Of a stretch of DNA of 64,000 nt, positions 5,382 through 33,054 are shown in pieces (the stretch's first letter is position 1; the number at the start of each line of letters is the position of its first letter). Made by a program: the position numbers and the translations under genes. This DNA is from Candidatus Nomurabacteria bacterium (GTDB lineage Bacteria; Patescibacteriota; Patescibacteriia; HK-STAS-PATE-3): assembly GCA_023898465.1 (NCBI GenBank), contig CP060223.1, forward strand, positions 288,001 to 352,000, in the 5' to 3' direction. The notes below the pieces were generated by a model, which was given only the letters and a program-made list of their open reading frames with translations, was not told where the DNA came from and searched no databases.

Positions 5382-5456
5382 GGCCCTATCGTCTAGTGGC
5401 TAGGACGCATGGTTCTCATCCATGTAACAGGGGTTCGATTCCCCTTAGGGCTACCA
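5382..5456 (+). tRNA. tRNA-Glu (anticodon CTC), CCA encoded
   Basis: Hand-folded cloverleaf. Acceptor GGCCCTA/TAGGGCT, D arm GTCT-AGTGGCTA-GGAC, anticodon stem CATGG/CCATG with loop TTCTCAT, T arm AGGGG-TTCGATT-CCCCT, discriminator A, then CCA. 75 nt. Confidence 0.93.
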
Positions 5457-6520: not shown

Positions 6521-7633
6521 ATGAAGATTGGCATAGTTACGCAGAGCTTTTTCCCCATTCGCGGAGGTGTCGCAGAACACGTCTATCATACAGCGCATGC
6601 TTTAGAGCGGCGCGGACACGAGGTCGTTATTATTACGGCCAATTTTAGTCGTTTTGATGAGGATAGGGGATGTCGGGTCGAGCGCATCGGCCGCGATTTA
6701 ACCATTCCCTTTAATCAGGCTTTTGTAAACCTGACCATTAGCTGGAATATCCCGCAGGAGTTACGCCACCTAGAGCGCAAGTACGGCTTCGACGTGGTGC
6801 ATATTCACGGACCCTACGAACCATTTTTACCTGCCCTGGCGCTGAAGAATATCGAGTGCCCAAAGGTTGGCACTTTTCATGCCTTTAACGCGCATCCCTC
6901 GTTGGGCTATCGCGTGTTTGAAAATTACATCCGAACCTTTAAGGATCGTTTGTCAGCCCGCATCGCGGTTTCGCAAGCCGCTAAGGACTTTATCTCGCAT
7001 CATTTCCCGGATGATTATGAAATCATCCCAAACGGCGTGGATGTGCAGCGCTTTAGTCCGCAGGTCAAACCCTTCCCTTGGTATAACCCAGAGAAATTCA
7101 CCATCCTCTTTGTCGGTCGTATGGATCCGCGCAAAGGTTTGAAATATCTCTTACGCGCCTTCACCATGATCGCGTCCGAGTTCCCGCAGGCCGAGGTGGT
7201 GGTTGTCGGCAATGGTATATTGCGTCGCTATTACGAAACCTTTTTAGAGCCGAGCCTGAAAGATCGCGTGCGTTTCGAGGGCTTTGTCTCGGCTGCAGAT
7301 TTACCGCGCTACTATGCCTCCAGCGATGTGTATGTGTCGCCAGCCACCGGCAATGAGAGTTTCGGCATTGTCTTGCTCGAGGGTATGGCCAGCGGCAAGC
7401 CGGTGATTGCGTCGGATATTGACGGGTATCGGGATGTGATTCGCCATGGCCAGGATGGGATTTTGGTGCCAAAATCTGACCCAGCCGCCCTAGCCCAGGC
7501 TCTCCGCACCCTGGCCCGTGACCCGCAAGAAAGAGCAAAATACCAGCAGGCCGGCCGTCAGCGGGCTGAGGAATTCTCCTGGGAGTCTATTACTGACCGC
7601 TTGGAGGAGGTGTATAGGAGGGTGGTGTATTGA
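6521..7633 (+). CDS. glycosyltransferase family 4
   Basis: GT-B fold signatures: N-terminal KIGIVTQSFFPIRGGVAEHV and C-terminal ESFGIVLLEGMASGKPVIASD. Confidence 0.85.
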   Translation: MKIGIVTQSFFPIRGGVAEHVYHTAHALERRGHEVVIITANFSRFDEDRGCRVERIGRDLTIPFNQAFVNLTISWNIPQELRHLERKYGFDVVHIHGPYEPFLPALALKNIECPKVGTFHAFNAHPSLGYRVFENYIRTFKDRLSARIAVSQAAKDFISHHFPDDYEIIPNGVDVQRFSPQVKPFPWYNPEKFTILFVGRMDPRKGLKYLLRAFTMIASEFPQAEVVVVGNGILRRYYETFLEPSLKDRVRFEGFVSAADLPRYYASSDVYVSPATGNESFGIVLLEGMASGKPVIASDIDGYRDVIRHGQDGILVPKSDPAALAQALRTLARDPQERAKYQQAGRQRAEEFSWESITDRLEEVYRRVVY

Positions 7634-7666: not shown

Positions 7667-10600
7667 ATGGACTCTGCCCCATTAACACTACAAACGAAGA
7701 CACTGCAGAGGTCTTCCGATCTAAATAATTACAGACTCTATCGCGCAGCTCTTGAATGGGAGTTGATTGATCCTATTGTCATAGAAGACCGGGATGACAT
7801 GCATTCCGAAAGTAGTTGGCGTGATCGTCTTGAGCCGTATCATCATCAAGTAACTAACCTAATAACTTTTTGTCGTCGCCTACCTGTTACTTTACTGGCG
7901 GATGATGTCGGGTTAGGAAAAACAATTAGTGCTGGCCTAGTTTTAAGCGAGTTAATTTCGCGCGGGAGAATTTCAAAAATATTAATAGTTTGCCCAAAAA
8001 TACTTCGAGATCAGTGGAAAGAAGAATTGGAAATAAAGTTCCGAATTCCGTCCACAATTGTGACAGGAAGAGAATTAATTACGGCAAAGCCTCCTGAAGA
8101 ACCAGGAGCGGTAATTACCACATACAATACGGCCAGACTGTATTTAGATAGAATTGACCAGAATGGTTTTGAAATATTGATACTTGATGAGGCGCATAAA
8201 TTGCGGAATCTATATGGTGTTGACCCAACACCTCAAGTTGCAATTAAATTCCGTAAAGCTCTGGCTGACCGGATGTTTAAGTACGTATTAATGTTAACTG
8301 CAACGCCGATCCAGAACAGACTATGGGATCTCTACTCGTTGGTTGACTTATTAACCGTTGCACGCGGCCATGAAAATCCCTTTGGAACGCCAGGTATTTT
8401 TGCGAGAAAATTTATTGCAGATAGTCGCACACAAGCGCGTCAGCTTAATCCGGAGATGCGGGATGAGTTTCGCTCAATTATTTACGGTTATATGTCTCGG
8501 GTTCGTCGTGGAGATGCAAAACTCCACTTCCCAGAGCGGGTAGTACAGTTGCATAAAGTTGACCCAACACCAGAAGAATTGCAGTTGATCGGTGTGGTCG
8601 GAAAATCTATACAACAACTGAATGCGCTTACACAAATTGTAATCCTCCAAGCTTTGGTGAGTAGTCCAGAAGCGCTAATAAAGATGTTAGAAGGAATGGC
8701 TAAAAAAGGAACCGTACCGCGTGAGGTGTTGGCGAACGTTAAGGAATCAGCCAAAGAAATTCAAATCACTACAAAACTAAAAGGTTTGGGCGCGTTAGTT
8801 GAAAAACTTAGAAAGGAGCAACCCAATACTTGGCGGGTGGTAGTTTTTACAAGATGGCGAGAAACTCAAACAACTATCGAAACTTTTCTTGAAAAGCAAG
8901 GAGTAAAATGCGGCTTGATAAATGGCGATTCAAGTAAGCGAAATCAGGAAACAATCCAAAGATTTAAAAAAGACTTACCAGACATTAATGTAATTATTTC
9001 TACTGAAGCAGGTTCGGAGGGCGTTAACCTTCAGGCCGCTAATGTTTTGGTTAATTACGATCTCCCCTGGAATCCAATGATAGTGGAACAAAGAATAGGT
9101 CGTATTCAAAGACTTGCTTCTAATTATGCAAATGTTTCTATTTTTAATATTGTTTTGCAAAATACCTTTGAAGAATATATTGTAGGGCGCTTGATGGAAA
9201 AGTTGCAGATGGCTTCTCATGCAATTGGGGATATTGAAGCACTATTGGAAGCATCCGGCATTGATGAAGGTGAAGAAAATGGCTCAAGTGGTTTTGAAGA
9301 AAAAATTCGCCAGTTAGTAGTTGCATCTTTAGCTGGAAAAGATGTTGAGCAGGCAACTCGTAAAGCTGAACAGAGTATTTCAGAAGCTAAAACAGAATTA
9401 GACCATGAAGAAAAGAACATTAATGCTTTACTTGGGGGGATGAGTGATTCTCTAGATTCTGGTCCAAGATGTCCGAAGCTTCCTCAAACTACTAAGTCGA
9501 TGGATGTCCGTGATTTTACTACGGCTGCTCTTATGAGCTTAGGCGCGGAACTACATCCAAAAAAGGATGGTTTATTAGTTTCACAACTTGCTGGGAAAAA
9601 AGAATTAATCCGATTTGATAATAACACTCTGAGCAGTGAAGAGGAGAGTGTCTTATATGCACCGGGAACTTCAACTTTTGAACGCTTAGTCCATAAAGTT
9701 GCAAATGTAGGAAAACACATTGTTGAAGACCTTGATAAAAACCCCCAACAGCAAATTGAGAAAGTAAGTCGTCAATGGGTCGAAAGTTTTGGCGGAGACT
9801 TCGAAAATGTAACGGTAGAGGACGTTTCTCGATGTTTTGCAGGAGTAGCAATAATTCGTGCAAGATCAACAGTAGCTCACGATAGTTATGAGCGTCTCAT
9901 TGAGGTTTCGTGCGCTCCCACTGAGCATTTCAGTTTTGTGACAAGAACGGGATTGGAACCCATCGGAGACTATATTGAAAATCCGACATCTGTTGGTGCG
10001 CTTTCAGAAAAATTAATTGAAAAAGCCAGCCAAGACTCGAGTATTCTTGAGTTCTGTAGATTTTATTTAGAACGAAGATCTCAAGAAATTGCCTCCGCAG
10101 GAAATGACGAAAGAAAAAAGAAAAAGCTTGAGGATGAGTTTACGCCCCGTCTTGAATTTTCCCTAGTCGGTCTTGAGGGCAAGGTTCATCGGATAGTTAA
10201 AAATCAGGTCTCTTATAGAATTGAACGTGAGGGCCAATACAAAAGTACCCTCATGATAACCCCCTCTTCTGGGCAAGTTGATATGCCGGGGATGGGACAA
10301 TGCATGAAAACAGGTAAGACTGTACCGAGCGATTGCTTAGCAAAGTGCGAAATAAGCGGACTTATAGTATTGCGGCATTTTCTTGATCAATCAGAGATCA
10401 GTAATCGACTGGCGCTCCCTGAGCACATCGTTTTATGTACGTTAAGCAACAAGCGAGTGCTAGCGGACGAAGCTATAAAATCAGATGTTACGGGCAAACT
10501 AGTCGCAAAGAAGTTTTTAAAAACATCTTCTCTGAGTGGCAAATTCGCTGAACCACAGTTCATTAACACTTGTGAGTTTACAAAAACAGAAGTTCTGGAA

Positions 10601-11194
10601 AGCGAAATTGCGGTCAGCCAGATTTCAGGAAAAAGATATCGCATTGATGAGCAACTTAAATCCGCAGTTTCAGGAAAACTAGGCCATCGACAAGAATTTG
10701 TAGCAAGTAGTATTTCATCAGCCCCACTTCTTGAAGAAGAAGCCATTCGTTCGGTCACTGGAAAATTTTGTGCACCAATGGAAGCGAGGCCCTGCACTTG
10801 GAGTGGTCGAAAGTGTCACCCCGAAGACCTTAGGACTTGCGAGTTGACCGGAGTCCAAATTCATTCAGAGTACGTAACGCTCGAACCACCAATTCGTTTA
10901 GAAACCCTAAATAATCTTTTGAATGGCACGAGGAGCAAATCTGACAAATTGGAAGTATGGCCTTCACTTTCAAATAGCGTTACAGCTTTATTAAAAGCAA
11001 AACGTTGTAAAATTGAAACAGCAGAAGTTTCACCTAGTGACGATATTTTGGCCGCTTCTATAGAGCTTCGAACTTTTCTAGGCCTGCGCGTGAGTCACAT
11101 TGGCGTACTTTATTCAATAAAGGATGGATCCGTAGTCGGGCGTGTTGCTAGAGGCAAGCGTGGTGATAAGGGCTGGAATCAAACTAAGAACTAA
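7667..11194 (+). CDS. SNF2-family ATPase/helicase with long C-terminal extension containing 13 tandem 15-aa repeats
   Basis: Motif I DDVGLGKT (GLGKT = aa 82-86), motif II DEAH (aa 174-177), motif III TATP, and motif VI QRIGRIQR (aa 475-482). About 690 further residues have no family I recognise. Low GC. Confidence 0.9.
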   Translation: MDSAPLTLQTKTLQRSSDLNNYRLYRAALEWELIDPIVIEDRDDMHSESSWRDRLEPYHHQVTNLITFCRRLPVTLLADDVGLGKTISAGLVLSELISRGRISKILIVCPKILRDQWKEELEIKFRIPSTIVTGRELITAKPPEEPGAVITTYNTARLYLDRIDQNGFEILILDEAHKLRNLYGVDPTPQVAIKFRKALADRMFKYVLMLTATPIQNRLWDLYSLVDLLTVARGHENPFGTPGIFARKFIADSRTQARQLNPEMRDEFRSIIYGYMSRVRRGDAKLHFPERVVQLHKVDPTPEELQLIGVVGKSIQQLNALTQIVILQALVSSPEALIKMLEGMAKKGTVPREVLANVKESAKEIQITTKLKGLGALVEKLRKEQPNTWRVVVFTRWRETQTTIETFLEKQGVKCGLINGDSSKRNQETIQRFKKDLPDINVIISTEAGSEGVNLQAANVLVNYDLPWNPMIVEQRIGRIQRLASNYANVSIFNIVLQNTFEEYIVGRLMEKLQMASHAIGDIEALLEASGIDEGEENGSSGFEEKIRQLVVASLAGKDVEQATRKAEQSISEAKTELDHEEKNINALLGGMSDSLDSGPRCPKLPQTTKSMDVRDFTTAALMSLGAELHPKKDGLLVSQLAGKKELIRFDNNTLSSEEESVLYAPGTSTFERLVHKVANVGKHIVEDLDKNPQQQIEKVSRQWVESFGGDFENVTVEDVSRCFAGVAIIRARSTVAHDSYERLIEVSCAPTEHFSFVTRTGLEPIGDYIENPTSVGALSEKLIEKASQDSSILEFCRFYLERRSQEIASAGNDERKKKKLEDEFTPRLEFSLVGLEGKVHRIVKNQVSYRIEREGQYKSTLMITPSSGQVDMPGMGQCMKTGKTVPSDCLAKCEISGLIVLRHFLDQSEISNRLALPEHIVLCTLSNKRVLADEAIKSDVTGKLVAKKFLKTSSLSGKFAEPQFINTCEFTKTEVLESEIAVSQISGKRYRIDEQLKSAVSGKLGHRQEFVASSISSAPLLEEEAIRSVTGKFCAPMEARPCTWSGRKCHPEDLRTCELTGVQIHSEYVTLEPPIRLETLNNLLNGTRSKSDKLEVWPSLSNSVTALLKAKRCKIETAEVSPSDDILAASIELRTFLGLRVSHIGVLYSIKDGSVVGRVARGKRGDKGWNQTKN
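10301..10882 (+). repeat. intragenic tandem array: 13 units of 15 codons (one unit has 14) inside the SNF2 gene
   Basis: The units, in order: CMKTGKTVPSDCLAK, CEISGLIVLRHFLDQ, SEISNRLALPEHIVL, CTLSNKRVLADEAIK, SDVTGKLVAKKFLKT, SSLSGKFAEPQFINT, CEFTKTEVLESEIAV, SQISGKRYRIDEQLK, SAVSGKLGHRQEFVA, SSISSAPLLEEEAIR, SVTGKFCAPMEARP, CTWSGRKCHPEDLRT, CELTGVQIHSEYVTL. Confidence 0.85.
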
Positions 11195-11195
11195 T

Positions 11196-12686
11196 ATGAA
11201 CCCTCTACTTACAAAAACCGATTATCTTCTTTACCGGGAATGCCCAAAGAATGTTTGGTATAAAATCCAAAAACCTGAATTGTATGCTACATCGGAGCTA
11301 ACAGAGTTTGAAAAATCGATAATGGAAACAGGTAATGAGGTTGAAAAGATTGCAAGGCAACTTTTTCCAAACGGGGTGTTAGTAACTTATCGTGATGCGC
11401 GCGGTCAAGCTGAGACACAAAAGCTATTGGCGGAGAACAAGGATGTGATTTTTCAGCCAGTTTTTGTCAAAAATAACTTTTTGGCTGCTATTGATGTTCT
11501 ACAAAAAGAAAAGAATGGCAAGGGCTACAATGTTTACGAAATAAAATCGACTAGTGATGTAGATAAGAAAACACATTTTCACGACCTAGCATTTCAAGTA
11601 AACGTTCTCAGAATGACAGGCCTGGGAATTAATAAATCATTTGTCATTCATCTAAACTCTGAATATATTCGAAAGGGAGAAATTGAGCTGGATCAGTTAT
11701 TTAAAGTATCAGATGTGACGGATGAAGTAGAAAGTCTTTTACCGGATGTTGCGACTGAGGCGGAAGAAGCATTGAAGTATATTAGCCAAACTTCTGAACC
11801 AGAGGGGTACTGCTGCTGTATTTATAAAGGTCGATCAAGGCATTGTTCAACCTTTCAGCTAGCGAACCCCGAAGTACCCGAATATAGTGTCCACGATATT
11901 TCTAGGATAGGGGTAAGCAAGGCTAAATTAAAAGAGCTAATTGACGGAAGTATTTTTCACCTGGACAAGATTCCGCCACACATTAAATTAAGCGAAATTC
12001 AACAAGGTCAAGTTGAAACCTATAAATTGAATAAGGTATTAGTAGATAAGGAAAGAATTGCGGAAGAATTTAGTGGTCTCACATTCCCACTTTATTTTCT
12101 TGATTATGAAACATTTCCATCAGCAATACCAAGATATGATGGCTTTTCACCATATAAACAAATTCCGTTCCAGTATTCTGTTTACAAACTAGATTCAGTC
12201 GAGAGTGAGCCAACTCATTTTGATTTTTTGTACTCTGGTCCCGAAGACCCCAGCAAGCACTTTGCCGAGTCTTTAAGGGAACATATCGGGGATAAAGGCT
12301 CGATCATCGTTTGGCATAAAGACTTCGAGTGTGGCAGAAATAATGAAATAGGTAGTCGAATTCCTACTTCGAAGGCTTTTTTTGACTCTGTTAATCAGCG
12401 AGTATACGATCTCGAAGACATTTTCAAGAAACAATACCACGTTCATCGAGATTATAAGGGAAGCACATCTATTAAAAACGTATTGCCTGTTTTAGTGCCA
12501 GAATTAACGTATAAAGACCTTGAAATTCGTGATGGTGGCAGTGCAGCGGATAGTTGGGACAAAATAATTAGTGGTGTATATAACGAGACAGAGAAAGAAA
12601 AGGTAATAAAAGATTTAAAGATTTATTGTGGTCTTGATACATTTGCAATGTATGCTATTTGGAATTGCTTGAACAAGCTACTCTAA
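11196..12686 (+). CDS. DUF2779-type protein: Cas4-like PD-(D/E)xK nuclease fused to a DEDDy-like 3'-5' exonuclease domain
   Basis: ATG lies 1 nt after the SNF2 stop. N-terminus TKTDYLLYRECPKNVWYK, then D100...E115-I-K117 (AAIDVL...YEIKS). Cys set C16 plus C206-C207-C208...C217. C-terminal half has FLDYET (D303/E305), WHKDFE (D376) and Y477-CGL-D481. Confidence 0.7.
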   Translation: MNPLLTKTDYLLYRECPKNVWYKIQKPELYATSELTEFEKSIMETGNEVEKIARQLFPNGVLVTYRDARGQAETQKLLAENKDVIFQPVFVKNNFLAAIDVLQKEKNGKGYNVYEIKSTSDVDKKTHFHDLAFQVNVLRMTGLGINKSFVIHLNSEYIRKGEIELDQLFKVSDVTDEVESLLPDVATEAEEALKYISQTSEPEGYCCCIYKGRSRHCSTFQLANPEVPEYSVHDISRIGVSKAKLKELIDGSIFHLDKIPPHIKLSEIQQGQVETYKLNKVLVDKERIAEEFSGLTFPLYFLDYETFPSAIPRYDGFSPYKQIPFQYSVYKLDSVESEPTHFDFLYSGPEDPSKHFAESLREHIGDKGSIIVWHKDFECGRNNEIGSRIPTSKAFFDSVNQRVYDLEDIFKKQYHVHRDYKGSTSIKNVLPVLVPELTYKDLEIRDGGSAADSWDKIISGVYNETEKEKVIKDLKIYCGLDTFAMYAIWNCLNKLL

Positions 12687-12690
12687 ACCT

Positions 12691-13392
12691 ATGAGCTTTC
12701 TTAAGATTTTTAGTGATGATTCTAAAGACAAGCCAAAAGAAAATGATAGTCGGAAACCTGAATGTCCATACTGTCAGGGCGTTTTAGTTAAAATTCCTGC
12801 TAGAAAAACAAAATGTTTTCACTGTGGGAAATATATTTTTGTACGAACACAGACAAAGGACAGAAAGCTCGTTTTGGTTACTGAAGAAAATTCGGCCGCG
12901 ATAGACTCTGAATGGGAGTCAAAACAAGCCGCTACGATCACTTCATTGGTGGAGAAAGTAGATTTTACAAAGAAAAAAGAAGGTCTGCGCGAAGGGTTTG
13001 GGGACAAGGAACCCTCCGTTAGTGACATAAAGTGGGGCTTGTGGAACAAGAGGCTTCAGGAAGCAATGAAACGCAATGATTTTTCAGAACTTTCAGGAAT
13101 ATATTTTCAAATGGCTCTGCGCTTGCACGAAAGTGGAAAAGACAGCTTTAAACTTCAGGGCCAGGCTCAAAAAATGTTTTTGTTTAAAGAAAAGCAAAGC
13201 GGTGTTGTTTCTAGCGTAGAGGTTTTTTCTAGAGATGGCTGTGAAGAATGTAAGAAAATAAACGGAAAGAAATTTGTTATTTTTGAAGCACTAAAACTCA
13301 TGCCACTACCCGTTCAATCCTGCACAAACAAACTGAATAAGAATGCGCCCAATGGTTGGTGTCGATGCACTTTTCTTCCTTTTATAGATTAA
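12691..13392 (+). CDS. zinc-ribbon protein with C-terminal CxxC...C...CxC module
   Basis: Starts 4 nt after the previous stop. N-terminal CPYC-x17-CFHC ribbon, a helical middle, then the C-terminal CEECKKINGKKF...LPVQSC...NGWCRCTFLP. Confidence 0.7.
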   Translation: MSFLKIFSDDSKDKPKENDSRKPECPYCQGVLVKIPARKTKCFHCGKYIFVRTQTKDRKLVLVTEENSAAIDSEWESKQAATITSLVEKVDFTKKKEGLREGFGDKEPSVSDIKWGLWNKRLQEAMKRNDFSELSGIYFQMALRLHESGKDSFKLQGQAQKMFLFKEKQSGVVSSVEVFSRDGCEECKKINGKKFVIFEALKLMPLPVQSCTNKLNKNAPNGWCRCTFLPFID

Positions 13393-13546: not shown

Positions 13547-13575
13547 TTGACAGGGCTTTTTTGTTATACTATTCT
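13547..13575 (+). promoter_or_regulatory. sigma70-type promoter of the hrcA operon
   Basis: TTGACA (13547-13552), 17-nt spacer, TATTCT (13570-13575). Sits immediately upstream of the CIRCE element. Confidence 0.6.
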
Positions 13576-13579
13576 TGTT

Positions 13580-13606
13580 TTAGCACTCAAATATTGAGAG
13601 TGCTAA
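13580..13606 (+). promoter_or_regulatory. CIRCE operator (HrcA binding site)
   Basis: TTAGCACTC-AAATATTGA-GAGTGCTAA is a perfect match to the consensus TTAGCACTC-N9-GAGTGCTAA. It ends 9 nt before the hrcA ATG. Confidence 0.95.
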
Positions 13607-13615
13607 TTCAAGCCC

Positions 13616-14883: not shown

Positions 14884-15294
14884 ATGGCAATTATCAAATG
14901 GAGTCCTTTTGCAGACATGCTTGGCGAAGATTTCTTCGAAGACATGCCGCTGGCTCGTAATTATCGCTTTGTCCCGGCCCTCGACATTTATGAGGATAAG
15001 GACAACATCGTAGTAGAAACCCCACTCTCGGGCATTGATCCAAACAAAGTAAATATTGAGATCGAGGACAACATCCTCAAAATCTCTGGATCAACCGAAA
15101 AGAAATCCGAAGTGGATGAAAAAAACTACTACCGCAAAGAAGTCCGCAGTGGACAATTCTTCCGCTCGGTTGCCCTGCCAAAAGCAGTGGATGCAGATAA
15201 GGCTGATGCGCAATATCACGACGGTATCCTGAAAATCACCGTGCCAAAGCGCGAAGAAGCCAAGCCAAAGACTATTTCCGTTCAAGTAAAGTAA
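14884..15294 (+). CDS. Hsp20/alpha-crystallin small heat-shock protein
   Basis: SD AAGGAG. PALDIYEDKDNIVVETPLSGIDPNKVNIEIEDNILKISG...YHDGILKITVPK. Confidence 0.92.
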   Translation: MAIIKWSPFADMLGEDFFEDMPLARNYRFVPALDIYEDKDNIVVETPLSGIDPNKVNIEIEDNILKISGSTEKKSEVDEKNYYRKEVRSGQFFRSVALPKAVDADKADAQYHDGILKITVPKREEAKPKTISVQVK

Positions 15295-17755: not shown

Positions 17756-18085
17756 ATGGCCAACAATTACAATATGCCCCCACAACAACAACGCCCGCAG
17801 ATTCAGATTAAGATTGCTGATGAGCAATTAAAAGGTGCTTACACCAACTCGGTGGCAGTTTTTCACTCCAAAGAGGAGTTTGTGCTTGATTTCATGAACG
17901 TGTATCCACCGCAAGGCATGGGCACGGTTGTCAGTCGCGTGATCACCAGCCCGGGACACATGAAGCGCCTCCTGGCAGCTCTGCAGGACAATATTGCCAA
18001 ATATGAGAAGCAACATGGTAAAATAGAAGAGGCAAAAACGCCTGACGCATCATTTGGCTTTAATACCGAAGAAAAGGATAAATAA
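17756..18085 (+). CDS. DUF3467 family protein
   Basis: GAYTNSVAVFHSKEEFVLDFMNVYPPQ...SRVITSPGHMKRLLAALQDNIAKYEKQHG matches my recollection of DUF3467. Confidence 0.7.
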   Translation: MANNYNMPPQQQRPQIQIKIADEQLKGAYTNSVAVFHSKEEFVLDFMNVYPPQGMGTVVSRVITSPGHMKRLLAALQDNIAKYEKQHGKIEEAKTPDASFGFNTEEKDK

Positions 18086-18337
18086 ATGGAAGAAGATAGT
18101 GAAAATAAATTAGTAAGCTGGAAAATAAAATTTATTTTTGGAGCCGTGATCGTGTCACTTTTTGCGGTTGAGGTAGGTGCTTTGTATGAACATGCGCCGA
18201 TGAATGATCATACAGGACCATGTAAGGTTATTGATTGCCATCAGGATCATACTGAAGAGTCTATATTTAACGGGGCAGTAAGTGGTATTTCTCCGTCAGG
18301 AACCATGGATTATACTGACCTTAACATTCCAAGCTAG
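18086..18337 (+). CDS. small membrane-anchored hypothetical protein
   Basis: ATG abuts the previous stop. One TM helix (IKFIFGAVIVSLFAVEVGAL). AT-rich. Confidence 0.5.
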   Translation: MEEDSENKLVSWKIKFIFGAVIVSLFAVEVGALYEHAPMNDHTGPCKVIDCHQDHTEESIFNGAVSGISPSGTMDYTDLNIPS

Positions 18338-18351
18338 TAGTTATAGTTATT

Positions 18352-19419
18352 ATGGCCTCGAAGCAAAACAAAAAAAAGAAAGAAGAGCCAGTCGCGCCTT
18401 TGCAATACCATCAGCGTAATCGTTTGATAGGGATATACGCCTTTGCGATTCTTGCTTGGGCAGGCTTTTGGTGGCTCATCCGGACGGCCTTTGCTGCAGA
18501 GATGCTACTTAGCGCAGAAACGCTTTGGCTCGTCAGTGGTGCTTTTGTGCTGTTTGGGCTTTCCCTTGGACTCTTTGGCTTGATGGCGGCAGTTGTTCGC
18601 ATACCGCGTTGGGGCGTTCTCTATGCCGCCGGAGCTGGGCTATTGCCGATCGCGTTTTTCCCTTTGAACCTTTTTACTTTGGCCGGAGCTTTACTGCTCA
18701 TGGCAGTGTGGTTTCGCTATTGGGCCATGGTAACGGAGGAGTCTGAGCATCGCATTCGCTTCAATCTAGTAAAAAGTGTTACCCACGGACTTGGTACGAT
18801 AATTTACCTGACCGTATTAAGTGTGGCCGTGTTTTATCTGGCCGTGACCAGTCAGTCGAATCAAACAAGCACGACATTTATTGATAACGTAACAAACTCC
18901 GCCTCTGATGCCGTCTTAGCAGTGCTGGATAATCAGCTGCCGGAATTTGATGCACAAATGACTTTGGATGCATTTATTACGCAGTATAGCGACCAGGATA
19001 TCACCGCCCTTTTACCTGAAAACTTTTTACCGGAAGACGTAAATAAATCCTTATTGGAAGAAAACACGCAGCAGAATATTGAAAACCTGGACGAAACCGC
19101 GCGGCAAGCAGCTATTGAAGAAGCGCGTACGCAGTTATTGCAAGCCTTGAATATTCACGCTGAGGGTAGTGACAGTATGGAAACGGTGGTGCGTCGCTTA
19201 GTGGAAGATAAACTGCAGCCGTTACTTGAGCGTTATGATACTGTTATCCCGCCAGTGCTCGCCTTAGCACTTTTCTCAGTCCTTTCCATCCTGGGCCTGG
19301 TGTATTTCTGGTGGATCGTGTTGTGGGCTTTCATTTGCTATGGTATCCTGCGAATTCTTCGCTGGGTGGAATTTGTTGAACATACGCAGACCGTCACCCG
19401 CGCGGAAATAAAGAACTGA
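18352..19419 (+). CDS. polytopic membrane protein, unknown function
   Basis: 355 aa. Several N-terminal TM helices and one C-terminal pair, with an acidic soluble middle. Confidence 0.65.
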
Positions 19420-31891: not shown

Positions 31892-32005
31892 AAGCCGTCG
31901 CATATAAAGCGCGACGGCGCACAAAAAAGAAATATTCGCTCTCTTACAAAGTTCTCAAAACATTTATTACAAAATCCGCGCCGTCGCAATGTGAGCGCCG
32001 TCGCA
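31892..32005 (+). promoter_or_regulatory. repeated GCGCCGTCGCA boxes in the ssb leader
   Basis: AAGCCGTCGCA at 31892-31902. Inverted copy GCGACGGCGC at 31911-31920. Exact GCGCCGTCGCA at 31978-31988 and again at 31995-32005. Confidence 0.5.
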
Positions 32006-32070
32006 GGTGAATGTGGAAAAGTATTTTTTCTTTCAACGCATACGACAAAGGTGGCATGAAAGGAGTTCAC

Positions 32071-32481
32071 ATGGACGTGAACAAAGTAACTTTGATCGGG
32101 AATTTAGTCCGCGATCCCGAGGCGAGAAATTTACCGAGCGGACAGGCGATTAGCACTTTTTCACTCGCCACAAACTATAGCTGGCGAGACATTAAAACAA
32201 AGAGTCGCAAGGAGTCAACTGAATTTCATGACATTGTTGCCTGGGGAAAATTGGGCGAAATCATCCAGCAGTACGTGAAAAAGGGCAGCAAAGTATATAT
32301 CGAAGGTCGCCTCCACCGTCGTTCTTGGGAAGATAAGGCAAAACAAAAGCATTATCGAACCGAGGTAGTTGCAGAAAATTTGGTCATGCTAGGTCATCGT
32401 AGTGCAAAGACAAAAGAAGTTGAACCAACCGAGTTACCAAAAGATGAGGTCAGTGTAGAAGAAATCCCCGTTACCGCTTAA
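32071..32481 (+). CDS. ssb: single-stranded DNA-binding protein
   Basis: SD AAAGGAG. NKVTLIGNLVRDPE...FHDIVAWGKLGE...VYIEGRL OB fold. The C-terminal tail ends EEIPVTA rather than the usual DDDIPF. Confidence 0.9.
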   Translation: MDVNKVTLIGNLVRDPEARNLPSGQAISTFSLATNYSWRDIKTKSRKESTEFHDIVAWGKLGEIIQQYVKKGSKVYIEGRLHRRSWEDKAKQKHYRTEVVAENLVMLGHRSAKTKEVEPTELPKDEVSVEEIPVTA

Positions 32482-32769
32482 GCTCTTTACACTCGAGAAG
32501 TTTGAACAAGCGTTCAGGCTTCTCGTCCGCTCAGCATGTGCGATCACTTGATGGTTCCTTTAAATTTTGATCGCCACCAAAATTTGTCTGCTATCAAGCG
32601 GCTGCTATGTTGAGTGGACGAGAGGTTAATTCTCTTCTTATGCAAATCATTTACTCCATCATTTCTATACTTATTCTCTGTGTTTTGGGAATCATTTTCC
32701 GAGTGCTTACTTGGACAGAGGAAGAAAACTAATTGTCTTTGTTGTAAGACTTTAGGTGTCTGTAGAAAA

Positions 32770-32961
32770 ATGAACAAAGCTACACTAATAAAAGGATTAC
32801 TACGTTTTGGTGCGAGCAGCTTATTACTCTCAGGGTATTATTTTCATATTTTTTCTACCGATAGCATATTGGTTGACTTAGTCGTTCCTCTTGCTACTTT
32901 TATCTTTGCCGTCTTTTTGATTGATAAAGGTGTAGATAGAGCTTTCAGAAAACTCAACTAA
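32770..32961 (+). CDS. small membrane protein (63 aa)
   Basis: Internal ATG of ORF 32614-32961. Two TM helices. Confidence 0.4.
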   Translation: MNKATLIKGLLRFGASSLLLSGYYFHIFSTDSILVDLVVPLATFIFAVFLIDKGVDRAFRKLN

Positions 32962-33054
32962 AAATGGGGGAAAGAACGCCTAAGCGTTTCTTCCCCACAC
33001 TCCAATAGAGAGAATGCTGCAGCGCGGTTGCTACGTCAACGCCTGATTTTTAGC

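What the first reader, a model, noticed from the sequence alone, without database searches (positions are those of the whole stretch)
7667..13392. Compact low-GC three-gene island (SNF2 ATPase + dual-nuclease DUF2779-type protein + Zn-ribbon protein): candidate undescribed defence or DNA-surveillance system
SEEN: three co-directional genes are packed with 1-nt and 4-nt gaps (stop 11194 / ATG 11196; stop 12686 / ATG 12691). They sit between a glycosyltransferase gene and the promoter/CIRCE of the hrcA operon. Hand counts of sampled 60-nt lines give 33-47% GC inside the island (7921, 9001, 12061) against 55-57% in the flanks (7321, 14401). None of the three starts has a clear Shine-Dalgarno. Gene 1 has a complete SNF2 motor (GLGKT, DEAH, TATP, QRIGRIQR) plus about 690 unassigned residues. 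Gene 2 combines a PD-(D/E)xK triad (D100, E115, K117) with a Cas4-style Cys set and a DEDDy-like exonuclease half. Gene 3 has Cys4 ribbons at both ends. ESTABLISHED: a translocase plus a nuclease encoded in a compositionally foreign operon is the recurrent logic of anti-phage systems such as DISARM, Hachiman, Gabija, Hna and Zorya. INFERENCE: I cannot match this trio to any named system I know. In particular, I know of no described system that uses DUF2779. No integrase or flanking direct repeats were seen, so the mode of acquisition is unknown.
Basis: partly seen in the sequence, partly recalled or inferred. Interest (0 to 1): 0.85.

Follow-up and report, generated by a model that had tools for sequence, protein, structure and literature searches.

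The report
Mobile SNF2 helicase with swappable nuclease
A foreign, low-GC insert in a tiny candidate-phylum bacterium carries a rare, widely transferred SNF2 motor protein joined to an exchangeable two-headed nuclease; it looks like an unnamed helicase–nuclease defence module, but the three genes are not a fixed trio.

Summary
Three tightly packed co-directional genes (SNF2 ATPase, DUF2779 nuclease, Zn-ribbon protein) form the lowest-GC 5.7 kb of the window (0.40 vs 0.48; GC3 0.33 vs 0.53–0.60). They lie between a GT4 glycosyltransferase gene and hrcA.

- **SNF2 protein:** it defines a rare family found in 117 of about 185,600 species genomes across more than 10 phyla. Its 690-residue C-terminal region has no match in Pfam or PDB.
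- **Context:** the family sits in variable neighbourhoods with recombinases, prophage-like modules and known defence genes.
- **Nuclease partner:** about 30% of loci have an abutting or fused Cas4-like + DEDD nuclease, of either of two families (PF11074 or PF13482). About 65% have no such nuclease.
- **Gene 3:** it rarely accompanies the pair.

PADLOC 2.0.0 gave no full-length match, NCBIfam scores were far below cut-offs, and the searched literature named nothing. Best reading: a modular helicase–nuclease anti-invader cassette. Function is untested.

The parts
7667..11194 (+). SNF2-family ATPase, 1175 aa (GenBank USN53812.1). It is the core gene of a rare, horizontally spread family.
   Evidence: ORF. 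Pfam SNF2-rel_dom 92.5 bits and Helicase_C 75.8 bits. More than 100 full-length homologues at 55-74% identity. 117 hits in 185,579 species genomes. Accession.
7889..9115 (+). SNF2 motor (residues 75-483), with Walker A K85 and DEAH 174-177. The closest models are BrxHII, DrmD, HmaA, DpdE and RapA, all below family cut-offs.
9344..11191 (+). Family-specific C-terminal region (residues 560-1175). It has a coiled helix, two cystatin/NTF2-like alpha+beta modules, a beta-hairpin repeat array and a terminal beta domain. No nuclease fold was recognised.
10274..10864 (+). Array of about 13 beta-hairpin repeats of 15 residues ([CS]xx[ST]G[KR]...). Most homologues have about 4 more repeats and long Nitrospira forms about 8 more.
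11196..12686 (+). DUF2779 dual nuclease, 496 aa. The N-terminal half is a Cas4-like PD-(D/E)xK domain (D100, E115, K117) with 4 Cys (C16, C206, C208, C217). The C-terminal half is a DEDDy 3'-5' exonuclease-like domain (D303, E305, D405, Y477, D481).
   Evidence: PF11074, E 8e-36. Weak PADLOC Cas4 hit. Invariant residues. Family architecture described in PMC3985635 and PMC13621843.
12691..13392 (+). 233-aa Zn-ribbon / TPR-like helical / C-terminal Cys-rich (MuF-like) protein (USN53814.1). It belongs to a large uncharacterised family and is an occasional third gene.
   Evidence: (2453 clusters at E<=1e-3).

Best explanation
The island is a horizontally acquired, modular helicase-nuclease cassette, most likely directed against invading DNA (phage or plasmid).

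**Shown**
- Gene 1 is an intact SNF2 dsDNA-translocase-type ATPase of the RapA/BrxHII/DrmD-like branch. It carries a family-specific, confidently folded C-terminal region with no recognisable nuclease.
- Gene 2 is an intact two-headed nuclease (Cas4-like Fe-S PD-(D/E)xK plus DEDDy exonuclease) that abuts gene 1 with a 1-nt gap.
- In relatives the same slot holds either a PF11074 or a PF13482 nuclease of the same two-domain design. It can lie upstream or downstream, or be fused to the N-terminus of the motor.

**Inferred**
- The SNF2 motor loads on and tracks along duplex DNA. Its C-terminal hairpin array and cystatin-like modules act as the sensor or docking surface.
- On meeting a foreign or abnormal DNA structure, the motor delivers or licenses the nuclease. 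The nuclease then degrades DNA from both polarities (5'-3' by the Cas4-like head, 3'-5' by the DEDDy head).
- Gene 3, a Zn-ribbon plus helical-repeat protein, is an optional adaptor or regulator. It travels with the nuclease rather than with the motor and occupies the position that a WYL protein holds in the SF1-helicase versions.
For: **Foreign origin.** GC is 0.40 vs 0.48 and GC3 0.33 vs 0.53-0.60. The SNF2 gene is more than 3 GC points below its flanks in 27 of 63 other hosts and above them in 3, for example 0.52 vs 0.65 in Bradyrhizobium.

**Rarity and spread.** There are 117 hits in 185,579 species genomes. They span Patescibacteria, Nitrospirota, Acidobacteriota, Alpha/Beta/Gammaproteobacteria, Planctomycetota, Verrucomicrobiota, Ignavibacteriota and Elusimicrobia. 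Motor identity across phyla is 58-83% (about 62-74% outside the closest Patescibacteria).

**Motor-nuclease linkage.**
- An adjacent dual nuclease occurs in about 24-27 of 80 loci, with 0-20 nt gaps or overlaps in most. Both nuclease families and both sides of the motor are represented.
- Fusion proteins exist: P0243 (1749 aa) and L060 (1758 aa).
- Close SNF2 relatives (82-83% motor identity) carry different nucleases in the same slot: L008/L010 DUF2779, L009/L011 PF13482-type.
- SNF2 linkage arises in at least 3 separate DUF2779 clades.

**Context.**
- The fusion lies beside type I RM plus a Gabija-like OLD/UvrD pair.
- Solo forms lie beside SIR2-HerA.
- Within 10 kb: OLD-family ATPases in 4 loci, serine recombinases in 11 of 80, tyrosine integrases in 4, and TerL/TerS-like/ParB-methylase modules in 4 Patescibacteria loci.

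**Conservation.** All catalytic motifs are intact and invariant.

Against: - No experiment exists, and no quantitative defence-island enrichment could be computed.
- About 65% of SNF2 homologues have no such nuclease within 10 kb, so the pair is facultative.
- Only about 15 of 80 close DUF2779 relatives have this SNF2.
- About 17 of 80 DUF2779 loci show conserved housekeeping synteny near rpoD, dnaG and rpoC. A DUF2779 gene is quasi-essential in JCVI-syn3.0 (PMC13621843). Both points fit a repair or replication role for the nuclease family.
- Gene 3 is rarely present.
- The immediate neighbours of the SNF2 fall into 129 different Pfam families, and only a minority are known defence genes.
- No own promoter or terminator was detected.
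Confidence: 0.5

Rival explanations
1. The cassette is a DNA repair or recombination end-processing module, analogous to MrfAB or AddAB/RecBCD. The SNF2 motor remodels stalled or damaged DNA, and DUF2779 resects ends for the host or for the element that carries it.
For: - DUF2779 orthologues sit in conserved housekeeping synteny (hisS-RNase_H_2-Trx-DUF2779-rpoD-dnaG-rpoC, and DUF2779-ADH-SIMPL-dnaG) in about 17 of 80 loci.
- The DEDD half is most similar to the mitomycin-repair exonuclease MrfB, and a family member is quasi-essential in a minimal cell (PMC13621843).
- Cas4-like nuclease plus helicase pairs also occur in non-defence contexts (PMC5704561).
- RmuC and SbcD-like genes neighbour some loci.
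Against: - The SNF2 family is rare and patchy, compositionally foreign in many hosts, and has non-conserved neighbourhoods rich in recombinases.
- The window's DUF2779 belongs to the mobile, helicase-linked clade, not the housekeeping clade.
- The cassette is exchanged between unrelated contexts at 86% nucleotide identity.
Confidence: 0.22
2. The cassette serves a function of an integrated mobile element: replication or recombination, exclusion of competing elements, or counter-defence. It would not be host immunity. The window copy would be a stranded remnant of such an element.
For: - In four Patescibacteria loci (L011, L020, L039, L048) the SNF2+nuclease pair lies within about 0.3-6.5 kb of a TerL/TerS-like/ParB-methylase module, with serine recombinases in the same loci.
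- Serine recombinases occur in 11 of 80 loci.
- Gene-3 relatives sit next to serine recombinase, HTH excisionase-like or Prim-Pol genes.
- The motor matches phage 'DNA helicase' phrog_62 at E 2e-72.
Against: - No relative of the SNF2 C-terminal region was found in 2.9 M IMG/VR contigs, 50,697 phage records or 72,556 plasmids.
- Genes 2 and 3 match no PHROG, and gene 2 matches no phage record.
- Most loci (for example Bradyrhizobium and Nitrospira) show no element genes nearby.
- The window island has no recombinase, repeats or packaging genes.
- Prophage- or satellite-borne cargo is itself typical of defence genes.
Confidence: 0.13
3. The three genes are not one system. The SNF2 would be a self-sufficient single-gene unit, the DUF2779+gene 3 cassette an independent unit that landed next to it, and the tight spacing a product of genome compaction in a 1.08-Mb genome.
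For: - The SNF2 is solo in about 65% of loci.
- Gene 1 GC (0.416) differs slightly from genes 2 and 3 (0.376 and 0.387).
Against: - Adjacency of this SNF2 to a Cas4-DEDD nuclease is seen in about 24-27 of 80 loci. Well under one locus would be expected if such nucleases (about 1 per genome) were placed at random. This expectation is my own rough estimate, not a computed background.
- The adjacency involves two nuclease families, both orders and fusions.
- The nearest SNF2 relatives all have a nuclease in the same slot.
Confidence: 0.1

Closest known systems
Hma / BREX-related 'BR' systems and BrxHII (SNF2 helicase with REase; HmaA nickase defends against T4; PMC11232893, PMC12839542)
   Same: - SNF2 motor of the same RapA/DrmD-like branch. 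The best PADLOC hits are BrxHI|BrxHII (2e-57), DrmD and HmaA (7e-46).
- Alpha+beta modules follow the motor.
- A motor coupled to a PD-(D/E)xK nuclease.
- A location in defence hotspots.
   Different: - The hits cover only parts of the motor.
- There is no N-terminal TUDOR domain and no methyltransferase or PglZ partner.
- The nuclease is a separate, or N-terminally fused, Cas4-like+DEDD protein rather than a C-terminal REase.
- The C-terminal hairpin array is unique to this family.
DISARM DrmD, Zorya ZorD, Dpd DpdE (SNF2 components of multi-gene defence systems)
   Same: An SNF2 ATPase used as the translocase of an anti-phage system. ZorD is fused to a nuclease.
   Different: - NCBIfam scores are far below cut-offs: DrmD 215/610, ZorD 73/1500, DpdE 171/500.
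- None of the partner genes (DrmABC, ZorAB, Dpd cluster) is present.
Hachiman (HamA nuclease + HamB helicase), Druantia III (DruH exonuclease + DruE helicase-nuclease; 10.64898/2026.05.13.724313), Hna, DdmD
   Same: The logic is the same: an SF2 helicase or translocase paired with or fused to a nuclease. An exonuclease processes DNA ends or junctions and licenses degradation.
   Different: - The helicase families (DExH/YprA) and nuclease families (DUF1837 and others) are unrelated to these.
- No sequence-level membership was found.
- The resemblance is functional only and is partly recalled from the literature.
Cas4-like nuclease + helicase associations (UvrD-Cas4 fusions, YprA+Cas4-like; Hudaiberdiev et al. 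2017, PMC5704561) and pAgo-ACE1 (PMC12094033)
   Same: - A Cas4-family nuclease serves as an ancillary effector of a motor or immune protein in defence contexts.
- Dcm and WYL neighbours are also seen here (L092, L098-L104).
   Different: - Those nucleases are pfam12705 single-domain proteins.
- This one is PF11074 with an added DEDDy exonuclease.
- An SNF2 partner was not described there.
MrfAB (B. subtilis mitomycin C repair helicase + DEDDh exonuclease)
   Same: A helicase plus a DEDD-type exonuclease encoded together. MrfB (8UN9) is the best match reported for the DUF2779 C-terminal half (PMC13621843).
   Different: - MrfA is a YprA-type DExH helicase with DUF1998, not an SNF2.
- MrfB lacks the Cas4-like head.
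- MrfAB is a chromosomal repair operon, not a mobile island.

Membership tests
SNF2-family ATPase (Pfam PF00176 + PF00271) | SNF2-related N-lobe and Helicase_C above gathering scores; motifs I (GxGKT), II (DEAH), III (TATP), VI (QRxGRxxR) | tested here: met
   92.5 bits (cut-off 24.9) and 75.8 bits (cut-off 23.5). Motifs at residues 82-86, 174-177, 211-214 and 475-482.
DISARM DrmD | Score at or above the NCBIfam equivalog cut-off; drmA/drmB/drmC and methylase in the operon | tested here: not met
   NF038317 scores 215.5 against 610 and NF038318 scores 184.3 against 950. The neighbours are a GT4 gene and hrcA.
BREX BrxHII / Hma (BR systems) helicase | N-terminal TUDOR, SNF2 core, inactive REase and alpha+beta domain; co-encoded PglX-type methyltransferase and/or PglZ (PMC12839542) | tested here: not met
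   PADLOC hits are partial (residues 353-643 only). The motor starts at about residue 55, leaving no room for a TUDOR domain. There is no methyltransferase or PglZ in the island.
Zorya ZorD | NCBIfam NF041790 cut-off of 1500; zorA/zorB neighbours | tested here: not met
   72.9 bits. No ZorAB genes.
RapA (RNA polymerase-associated SNF2) | NF003426 cut-off of 576; tandem N-terminal Tudor domains; vertically inherited single-copy gene | tested here: not met
DUF2779 (PF11074) Cas4-like + DEDD nucleases | PF11074 above cut-off; N-terminal PD-(D/E)xK triad; C-terminal DEDD(h/y) acidic residues (PMC3985635, PMC13621843) | tested here: met
   123.5 bits (cut-off 23.3). D100/E115/K117 and D303/E305/D405/Y477/D481 are invariant, as are four Cys.
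CRISPR-associated Cas4 (adaptation module) | Adjacent cas1/cas2 or another cas operon and a CRISPR array | tested here: not met
   Only a weak PADLOC Cas4 hit, E 4.6e-7. No tandem or CRISPR repeats anywhere in the window. No cas genes among the ORFs.
Hachiman | HamA (DUF1837 nuclease) plus HamB (DExH helicase) | tested here: not met
   PADLOC gives no HamA hit for gene 2 or gene 3. Gene 1's 25 listed best hits are SNF2-type models and include no HamB. 32 further hits were not shown.
MrfAB repair pair | MrfA: DExH helicase with DUF1998. MrfB: DEDDh exonuclease. | tested here: not met
   No DUF1998 or YprA-type domain in gene 1. The DEDD half is only remotely similar to MrfB, according to PMC13621843. 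The profile search against PDB sequences found nothing.
Phage Mu F-like (PF04233) for gene 3 | PF04233 above the gathering score | tested here: not met
   No hit for the window protein. Only 4 of 60 family members reach E<=0.01, best 4e-4. The resemblance is limited to the C-terminal Cys motif.
Hna / DdmD single-polypeptide helicase-nucleases | Family-specific HMM or structure match | not testable with these tools
   Neither name appears among the 25 PADLOC 2.0.0 hits listed for gene 1. Whether that library holds models for them was not checked. The comparison rests on abstracts.

The most novel reading that the evidence does not exclude
Probability: 0.35. Interest if true: 0.75.

Novelty: new variant of a known kind. 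Interest (0 to 1): 0.55.

Why it matters
**If the defence reading is right**
- It adds a helicase-nuclease immune module with a motor architecture and an effector family that are both currently uncharacterised.
- It gives an experimental handle on DUF2779. That family has thousands of members, no known function and no solved structure.

**If the repair reading is right**
- It would point to a mobile end-processing machine in CPR bacteria, which have very reduced repair repertoires.

**Either way**
- The finding is a candidate, not a demonstrated system.
- Helicase-nuclease modules are already a crowded class, so the surprise is moderate.

Tried and rejected
- **Exact look-up of gene 2.** Both start codons gave nothing on record, although genes 1 and 3 are deposited. 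The deposited start probably differs.
- **Viral scans.** IMG/VR scans with the gene 3 and SNF2 C-terminal alignments found no relatives. The broad gene 3 alignment was too diverse to scan with.
- **Phage and plasmid records.** The SNF2 C-terminus matched neither. Gene 2 matched no phage record.
- **PDB sequence searches.** Profiles of gene 2 and of the SNF2 C-terminus found nothing.
- **AFDB Foldseek.** The library was unavailable.
- **Island boundaries and signals.** No att-like direct repeats, flanking inverted repeats, tRNA at the border, own promoter or terminator, or Rfam element.
- **Rejected memberships.** DISARM, BREX/Hma, Zorya, Dpd and RapA, on model scores and missing partners.
- **Shine-Dalgarno.** Rejected as an island feature.
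- **Literature.** Searches for DUF2779, PF13482, COG2251, SNF2+Cas4 and Cas4-family nucleases found no description of this pairing. IetH, an SNF2 helicase of IetHAS (PMC13069673), could not be compared because no sequence was available.

Full report
**1. The observation**

The gaps are 1 nt and 4 nt.

The region is compositionally foreign.
- GC is 0.402 against 0.480 for the rest of the window. The SD of 1-kb windows outside is 0.023 and their lowest value is 0.433.
- It is the lowest 5.7-kb stretch of the 64 kb.
- GC3 is 0.33-0.35 against 0.53-0.60 in the flanking glycosyltransferase, hrcA and dnaK genes.

The flanks are a GT4 glycosyltransferase and hrcA-grpE-hsp20-dnaK. A promoter-like site and a CIRCE inverted repeat lie at 13547-13612.

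No integrase, flanking repeat, bordering tRNA, CRISPR array or Rfam element is present.

The lack of a Shine-Dalgarno is not special. Only 2 of 37 long ORFs in the window have one.

The window comes from a 1.08-Mb Candidatus Nomurabacteria (Patescibacteria/CPR) genome. Genes 1 and 3 are USN53812.1 and USN53814.1.

**2. The three proteins**

*Gene 1*
- It has a complete SNF2 motor (Pfam SNF2-rel_dom and Helicase_C, residues 75-483). The motifs are GLGKT 82-86, DEAH 174-177, TATP 211-214 and QRIGRIQR 475-482.
- Its best matches in PADLOC and NCBIfam are BrxHI|BrxHII, DrmD, HmaA, ZorD, DpdE and RapA. All are partial and far below the curated cut-offs: DrmD 215 vs 610, ZorD 73 vs 1500, RapA 125 vs 576.
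- The remaining 690 or so residues have no Pfam or PDB sequence match, yet they are highly conserved in the family.
- AlphaFold2 with 85 sequences gives a confident model (pLDDT 89.9). It shows a long helix, two alpha+beta modules each with a long beta-hairpin, about 13 short beta-hairpin repeats of 15 residues ([CS]xx[ST]G[KR]), and a terminal beta domain.
- The repeat number varies between homologues. C-terminal lengths are 613-616, 648, about 676 and 797 residues.

*Gene 2*
- It is a typical DUF2779 protein (PF11074, 123.5 bits).
- The PD-(D/E)xK triad D100/E115/K117, four cysteines (C16, C206, C208, C217) and the DEDDy set D303/E305/D405/Y477/D481 are invariant in 43 homologues.
- This two-nuclease architecture is the published family architecture (PMC3985635; PMC13621843).
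- No relative has a solved structure.

*Gene 3*
- It has an N-terminal Cys4 ribbon, a helical TPR-like middle and a C-terminal Cys-rich motif.
- It has no Pfam family. Its family is nonetheless large: 2453 clusters at 50% identity with E<=1e-3.
- 4 of 60 members weakly touch Phage_Mu_F.

**3. Is the trio a unit? No. The motor-nuclease pair is a recurrent but optional coupling.**

*Starting from the SNF2.* I scanned one genome per species (185,579) with the family-specific C-terminal alignment. This gave 117 hits, and 80 loci were examined. The hosts span Patescibacteria, Nitrospirota, Acidobacteriota, Alpha-, Beta- and Gammaproteobacteria (Bradyrhizobium, Rhodopseudomonas, Bosea), Planctomycetota, Verrucomicrobiota, Ignavibacteriota, Elusimicrobia and others. 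Motor identity across phyla is 58-83%, about 62-74% outside the closest Patescibacteria.

*Nuclease partners of the SNF2.*
- About 24-27 of the 80 loci have a Cas4-like + RNase-H-like exonuclease gene directly next to the SNF2.
- It is either DUF2779-type (about 15 loci) or the sister PF13482/PDDEXK_1 type (about 9-11 loci).
- It lies downstream or upstream, usually with 0-20 nt gaps or overlaps and occasionally on the opposite strand.
- In two records the nuclease is fused to the N-terminus of the motor: P0243 (1749 aa) and L060 (1758 aa).
- The closest SNF2 relatives (82-83% motor identity) carry different nucleases in the same slot: L008 and L010 DUF2779, L009 and L011 PF13482-type.
- If such nucleases (roughly one per genome) were placed at random, I would expect well under one adjacent case in 80 loci. 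This is my own rough estimate, not a computed background.
- The remaining 65% or so of loci have the SNF2 with no such nuclease within 10 kb.
- Gene-3 relatives appear in only three loci (L030, L039, L069), all of them nuclease-containing.

*Starting from gene 2.* Of 80 metagenome loci holding its subfamily (43-69% identity), about 15 have this SNF2 and 1 has a gene-3 relative. The rest fall into several types.
- An SF1 helicase of about 1600 aa (AAA_11/AAA_12 ± DUF4011, with a C-terminal MTES_1575 endonuclease) plus a small WYL protein plus DUF2779.
- A ResIII helicase or HsdR upstream.
- Small PDDEXK_1 or ExoX-like neighbours.
- Two conserved housekeeping arrangements, about 17 loci in all: hisS-RNase_H_2-thioredoxin-DUF2779-rpoD-dnaG-rpoC, and DUF2779-ADH-SIMPL-...-dnaG.

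A further gene-3 relative sits between an SF1 helicase and a DUF2779 gene next to a Prim-Pol. Others sit next to serine recombinase, HTH or Mrr genes without any nuclease.

On plasmids, DUF2779 genes follow IetA-like, MzaB-like or other ATPases among PLD, dGTPase, SbcCD, WYL and DUF2357 genes.

**4. Context of the SNF2 family**

Beyond the nucleases, no neighbour is conserved. The 139 nearest neighbours fall into 129 Pfam families.

Recurrent items within 10 kb:

| Neighbour | Loci |
|---|---|
| Large serine recombinases | 11 of 80 |
| Tyrosine integrases | 4 |
| OLD-family ATPases | 4 |
| SIR2+HerA | 1 of the 80 genome loci (L077), plus the L005-L007 look-up loci |
| HerA-like gene alone | L047 |
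| PIN toxins | 3 |
| PDC-S13 Bro-N protein | 1 |
| TerL / small HTH / ParB-methylase module, beside or near the SNF2-nuclease pair, with serine recombinases in the same loci | 4 (Patescibacteria) |

The fused form lies beside type I RM and a Gabija-like OLD/UvrD pair. A solo Nitrospiraceae form lies beside SIR2-HerA.

The SNF2 gene is at least 3 GC points below its flanks in 27 of 63 loci and above them in 3. Some copies are split into two ORFs.

No relative of the SNF2 C-terminus occurs in IMG/VR, INPHARED or PLSDB.

**5. Mechanism**

*Shown.* There is an intact SNF2 motor without its own nuclease. An intact two-headed nuclease is encoded in translational-coupling distance. The coupling recurs and includes fusions. 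The origin is horizontal and the contexts are mobile or defence-rich.

*Inferred.*
- The motor tracks along duplex DNA.
- Its variable hairpin array and cystatin-like modules sense or dock.
- DUF2779 is delivered or licensed to degrade DNA with both polarities.
- Gene 3 is an optional adaptor or regulator that belongs to the nuclease cassette. It occupies the place a WYL protein has in the SF1 versions.

I put 0.5 on an anti-invader role. The rivals are:
- a repair or end-resection module (0.22). It is supported by the housekeeping DUF2779 clade, the MrfB similarity and the quasi-essential Mycoplasma homologue.
- a function of the carrying element (0.13).
- mere juxtaposition of independent units (0.10).

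**6. Comparison and novelty**

By logic the cassette resembles HmaA/BR-system SNF2-REase fusions (PMC11232893, PMC12839542) and ZorD. It also resembles Hachiman, Druantia III DruH/DruE (10.64898/2026.05.13.724313) and Hna (PMC13381803). A further parallel is the Cas4-like nuclease + UvrD/YprA helicase associations predicted to be defensive in 2017 (PMC5704561).

It fails the membership tests for DISARM, BREX/Hma, Zorya, Dpd, RapA, CRISPR-Cas4, Hachiman and MrfAB.

Seven papers mention DUF2779, none in a defence system. Searches for PF13482, COG2251 and SNF2+Cas4 found no description of the pairing.

I could not run DefenseFinder or newer PADLOC releases, and I could not compare with IetH.

**Verdict.** This is a real, apparently undescribed variant of the helicase-nuclease theme. 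Interest is moderate (0.55).

Noticed in passing
window 10274-10864 (gene 1 residues 870-1066): About 13 tandem 15-residue beta-hairpin repeats ([CS]xx[ST]G[KR]...). The repeat number differs between homologues: the window and its closest relatives have about 4 fewer than most, and long Nitrospira forms have about 8 more. The Cys positions are largely replaced by Ser, so zinc binding is doubtful.
   Followed up: partly
L011, L020, L039, L048 (Patescibacteria genome loci): The loci share a recurring gene set: large serine recombinase(s), a TerL / small HTH (TerS-like) / ParB_N-N6_N4 methylase block, and the SNF2+nuclease pair. In L020 the pair lies directly beside and divergent from the block. 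In the others it is 1.6-6.5 kb away. This looks like a small prophage- or satellite-like element of CPR bacteria.
   Followed up: partly
L112, L131, L133, L135, L136, L138, L141, L142, L145, L154; L110, L115, L118, L129, L139: DUF2779 orthologues (52-58% identical to gene 2) sit in conserved housekeeping synteny: hisS - small RNase_H_2 exonuclease - thioredoxin - DUF2779 - rpoD - dnaG - rpoC, or DUF2779 - ADH - SIMPL - dnaG. This suggests a core role for part of the family.
   Followed up: partly
L098, L100, L104 (full triad); L099, L105, L106, L166 (helicase + DUF2779 only): A second recurrent arrangement pairs an SF1 helicase of about 1600 aa (AAA_11/AAA_12 ± DUF4011, with a C-terminal MTES_1575/DUF559-like endonuclease) with DUF2779. 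In three loci a small WYL protein lies between them. In L090 the helicase is followed instead by a gene-3 relative and then DUF2779.
   Followed up: partly
window 11196-12686: The exact product of gene 2 (from either start codon) is not on record in the protein collection, although genes 1 and 3 of the same genome are (USN53812.1, USN53814.1). The deposited annotation probably uses another start or flags the gene differently.
   Followed up: no
whole window: Only 2 of 37 ORFs of at least 200 aa have a Shine-Dalgarno-like motif upstream. This genome seems largely to lack SD-led initiation.
   Followed up: partly
window 13547-13612: A promoter-like site (TTGACA-17-TATTCT) is followed by a CIRCE element (TTAGCACTC-N9-GAGTGCTAA) in front of hrcA. 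An hsp20 gene (14884-15294) lies between grpE and dnaK.
   Followed up: partly
window 6521-7633: The upstream GT4 glycosyltransferase (host-like GC 0.53) also passes the cut-off of PF20706 'GT4 in conflict systems' (33.8 vs 26 bits). Generic GT1/GT4 models score far higher.
   Followed up: no
window 5382-5456: A tRNA-Glu(CTC) gene lies 2.2 kb upstream of the island, separated from it by a 179-aa ORF with no Pfam match and by the GT4 gene. It is not at the island border.
   Followed up: no
window 18001-18500 and 32001-33000: Two further short GC dips (0.406 and 0.414).
   Followed up: no
L015, L037, L066, L068: In these genomes the SNF2 gene is split into two ORFs. This could be a frameshift, a pseudogene or an assembly error, and would be consistent with decay of an accessory gene.
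   Followed up: no
L096 (Rhodoferax plasmid NZ_CP019242.1) and L094, L095: Plasmid DUF2779 genes directly follow ATPases that hit PADLOC IetA/TRIP13 or MzaB models. They lie among PLD, WYL, macro, DUF2357, dGTPase and SbcCD-like genes.
   Followed up: partly
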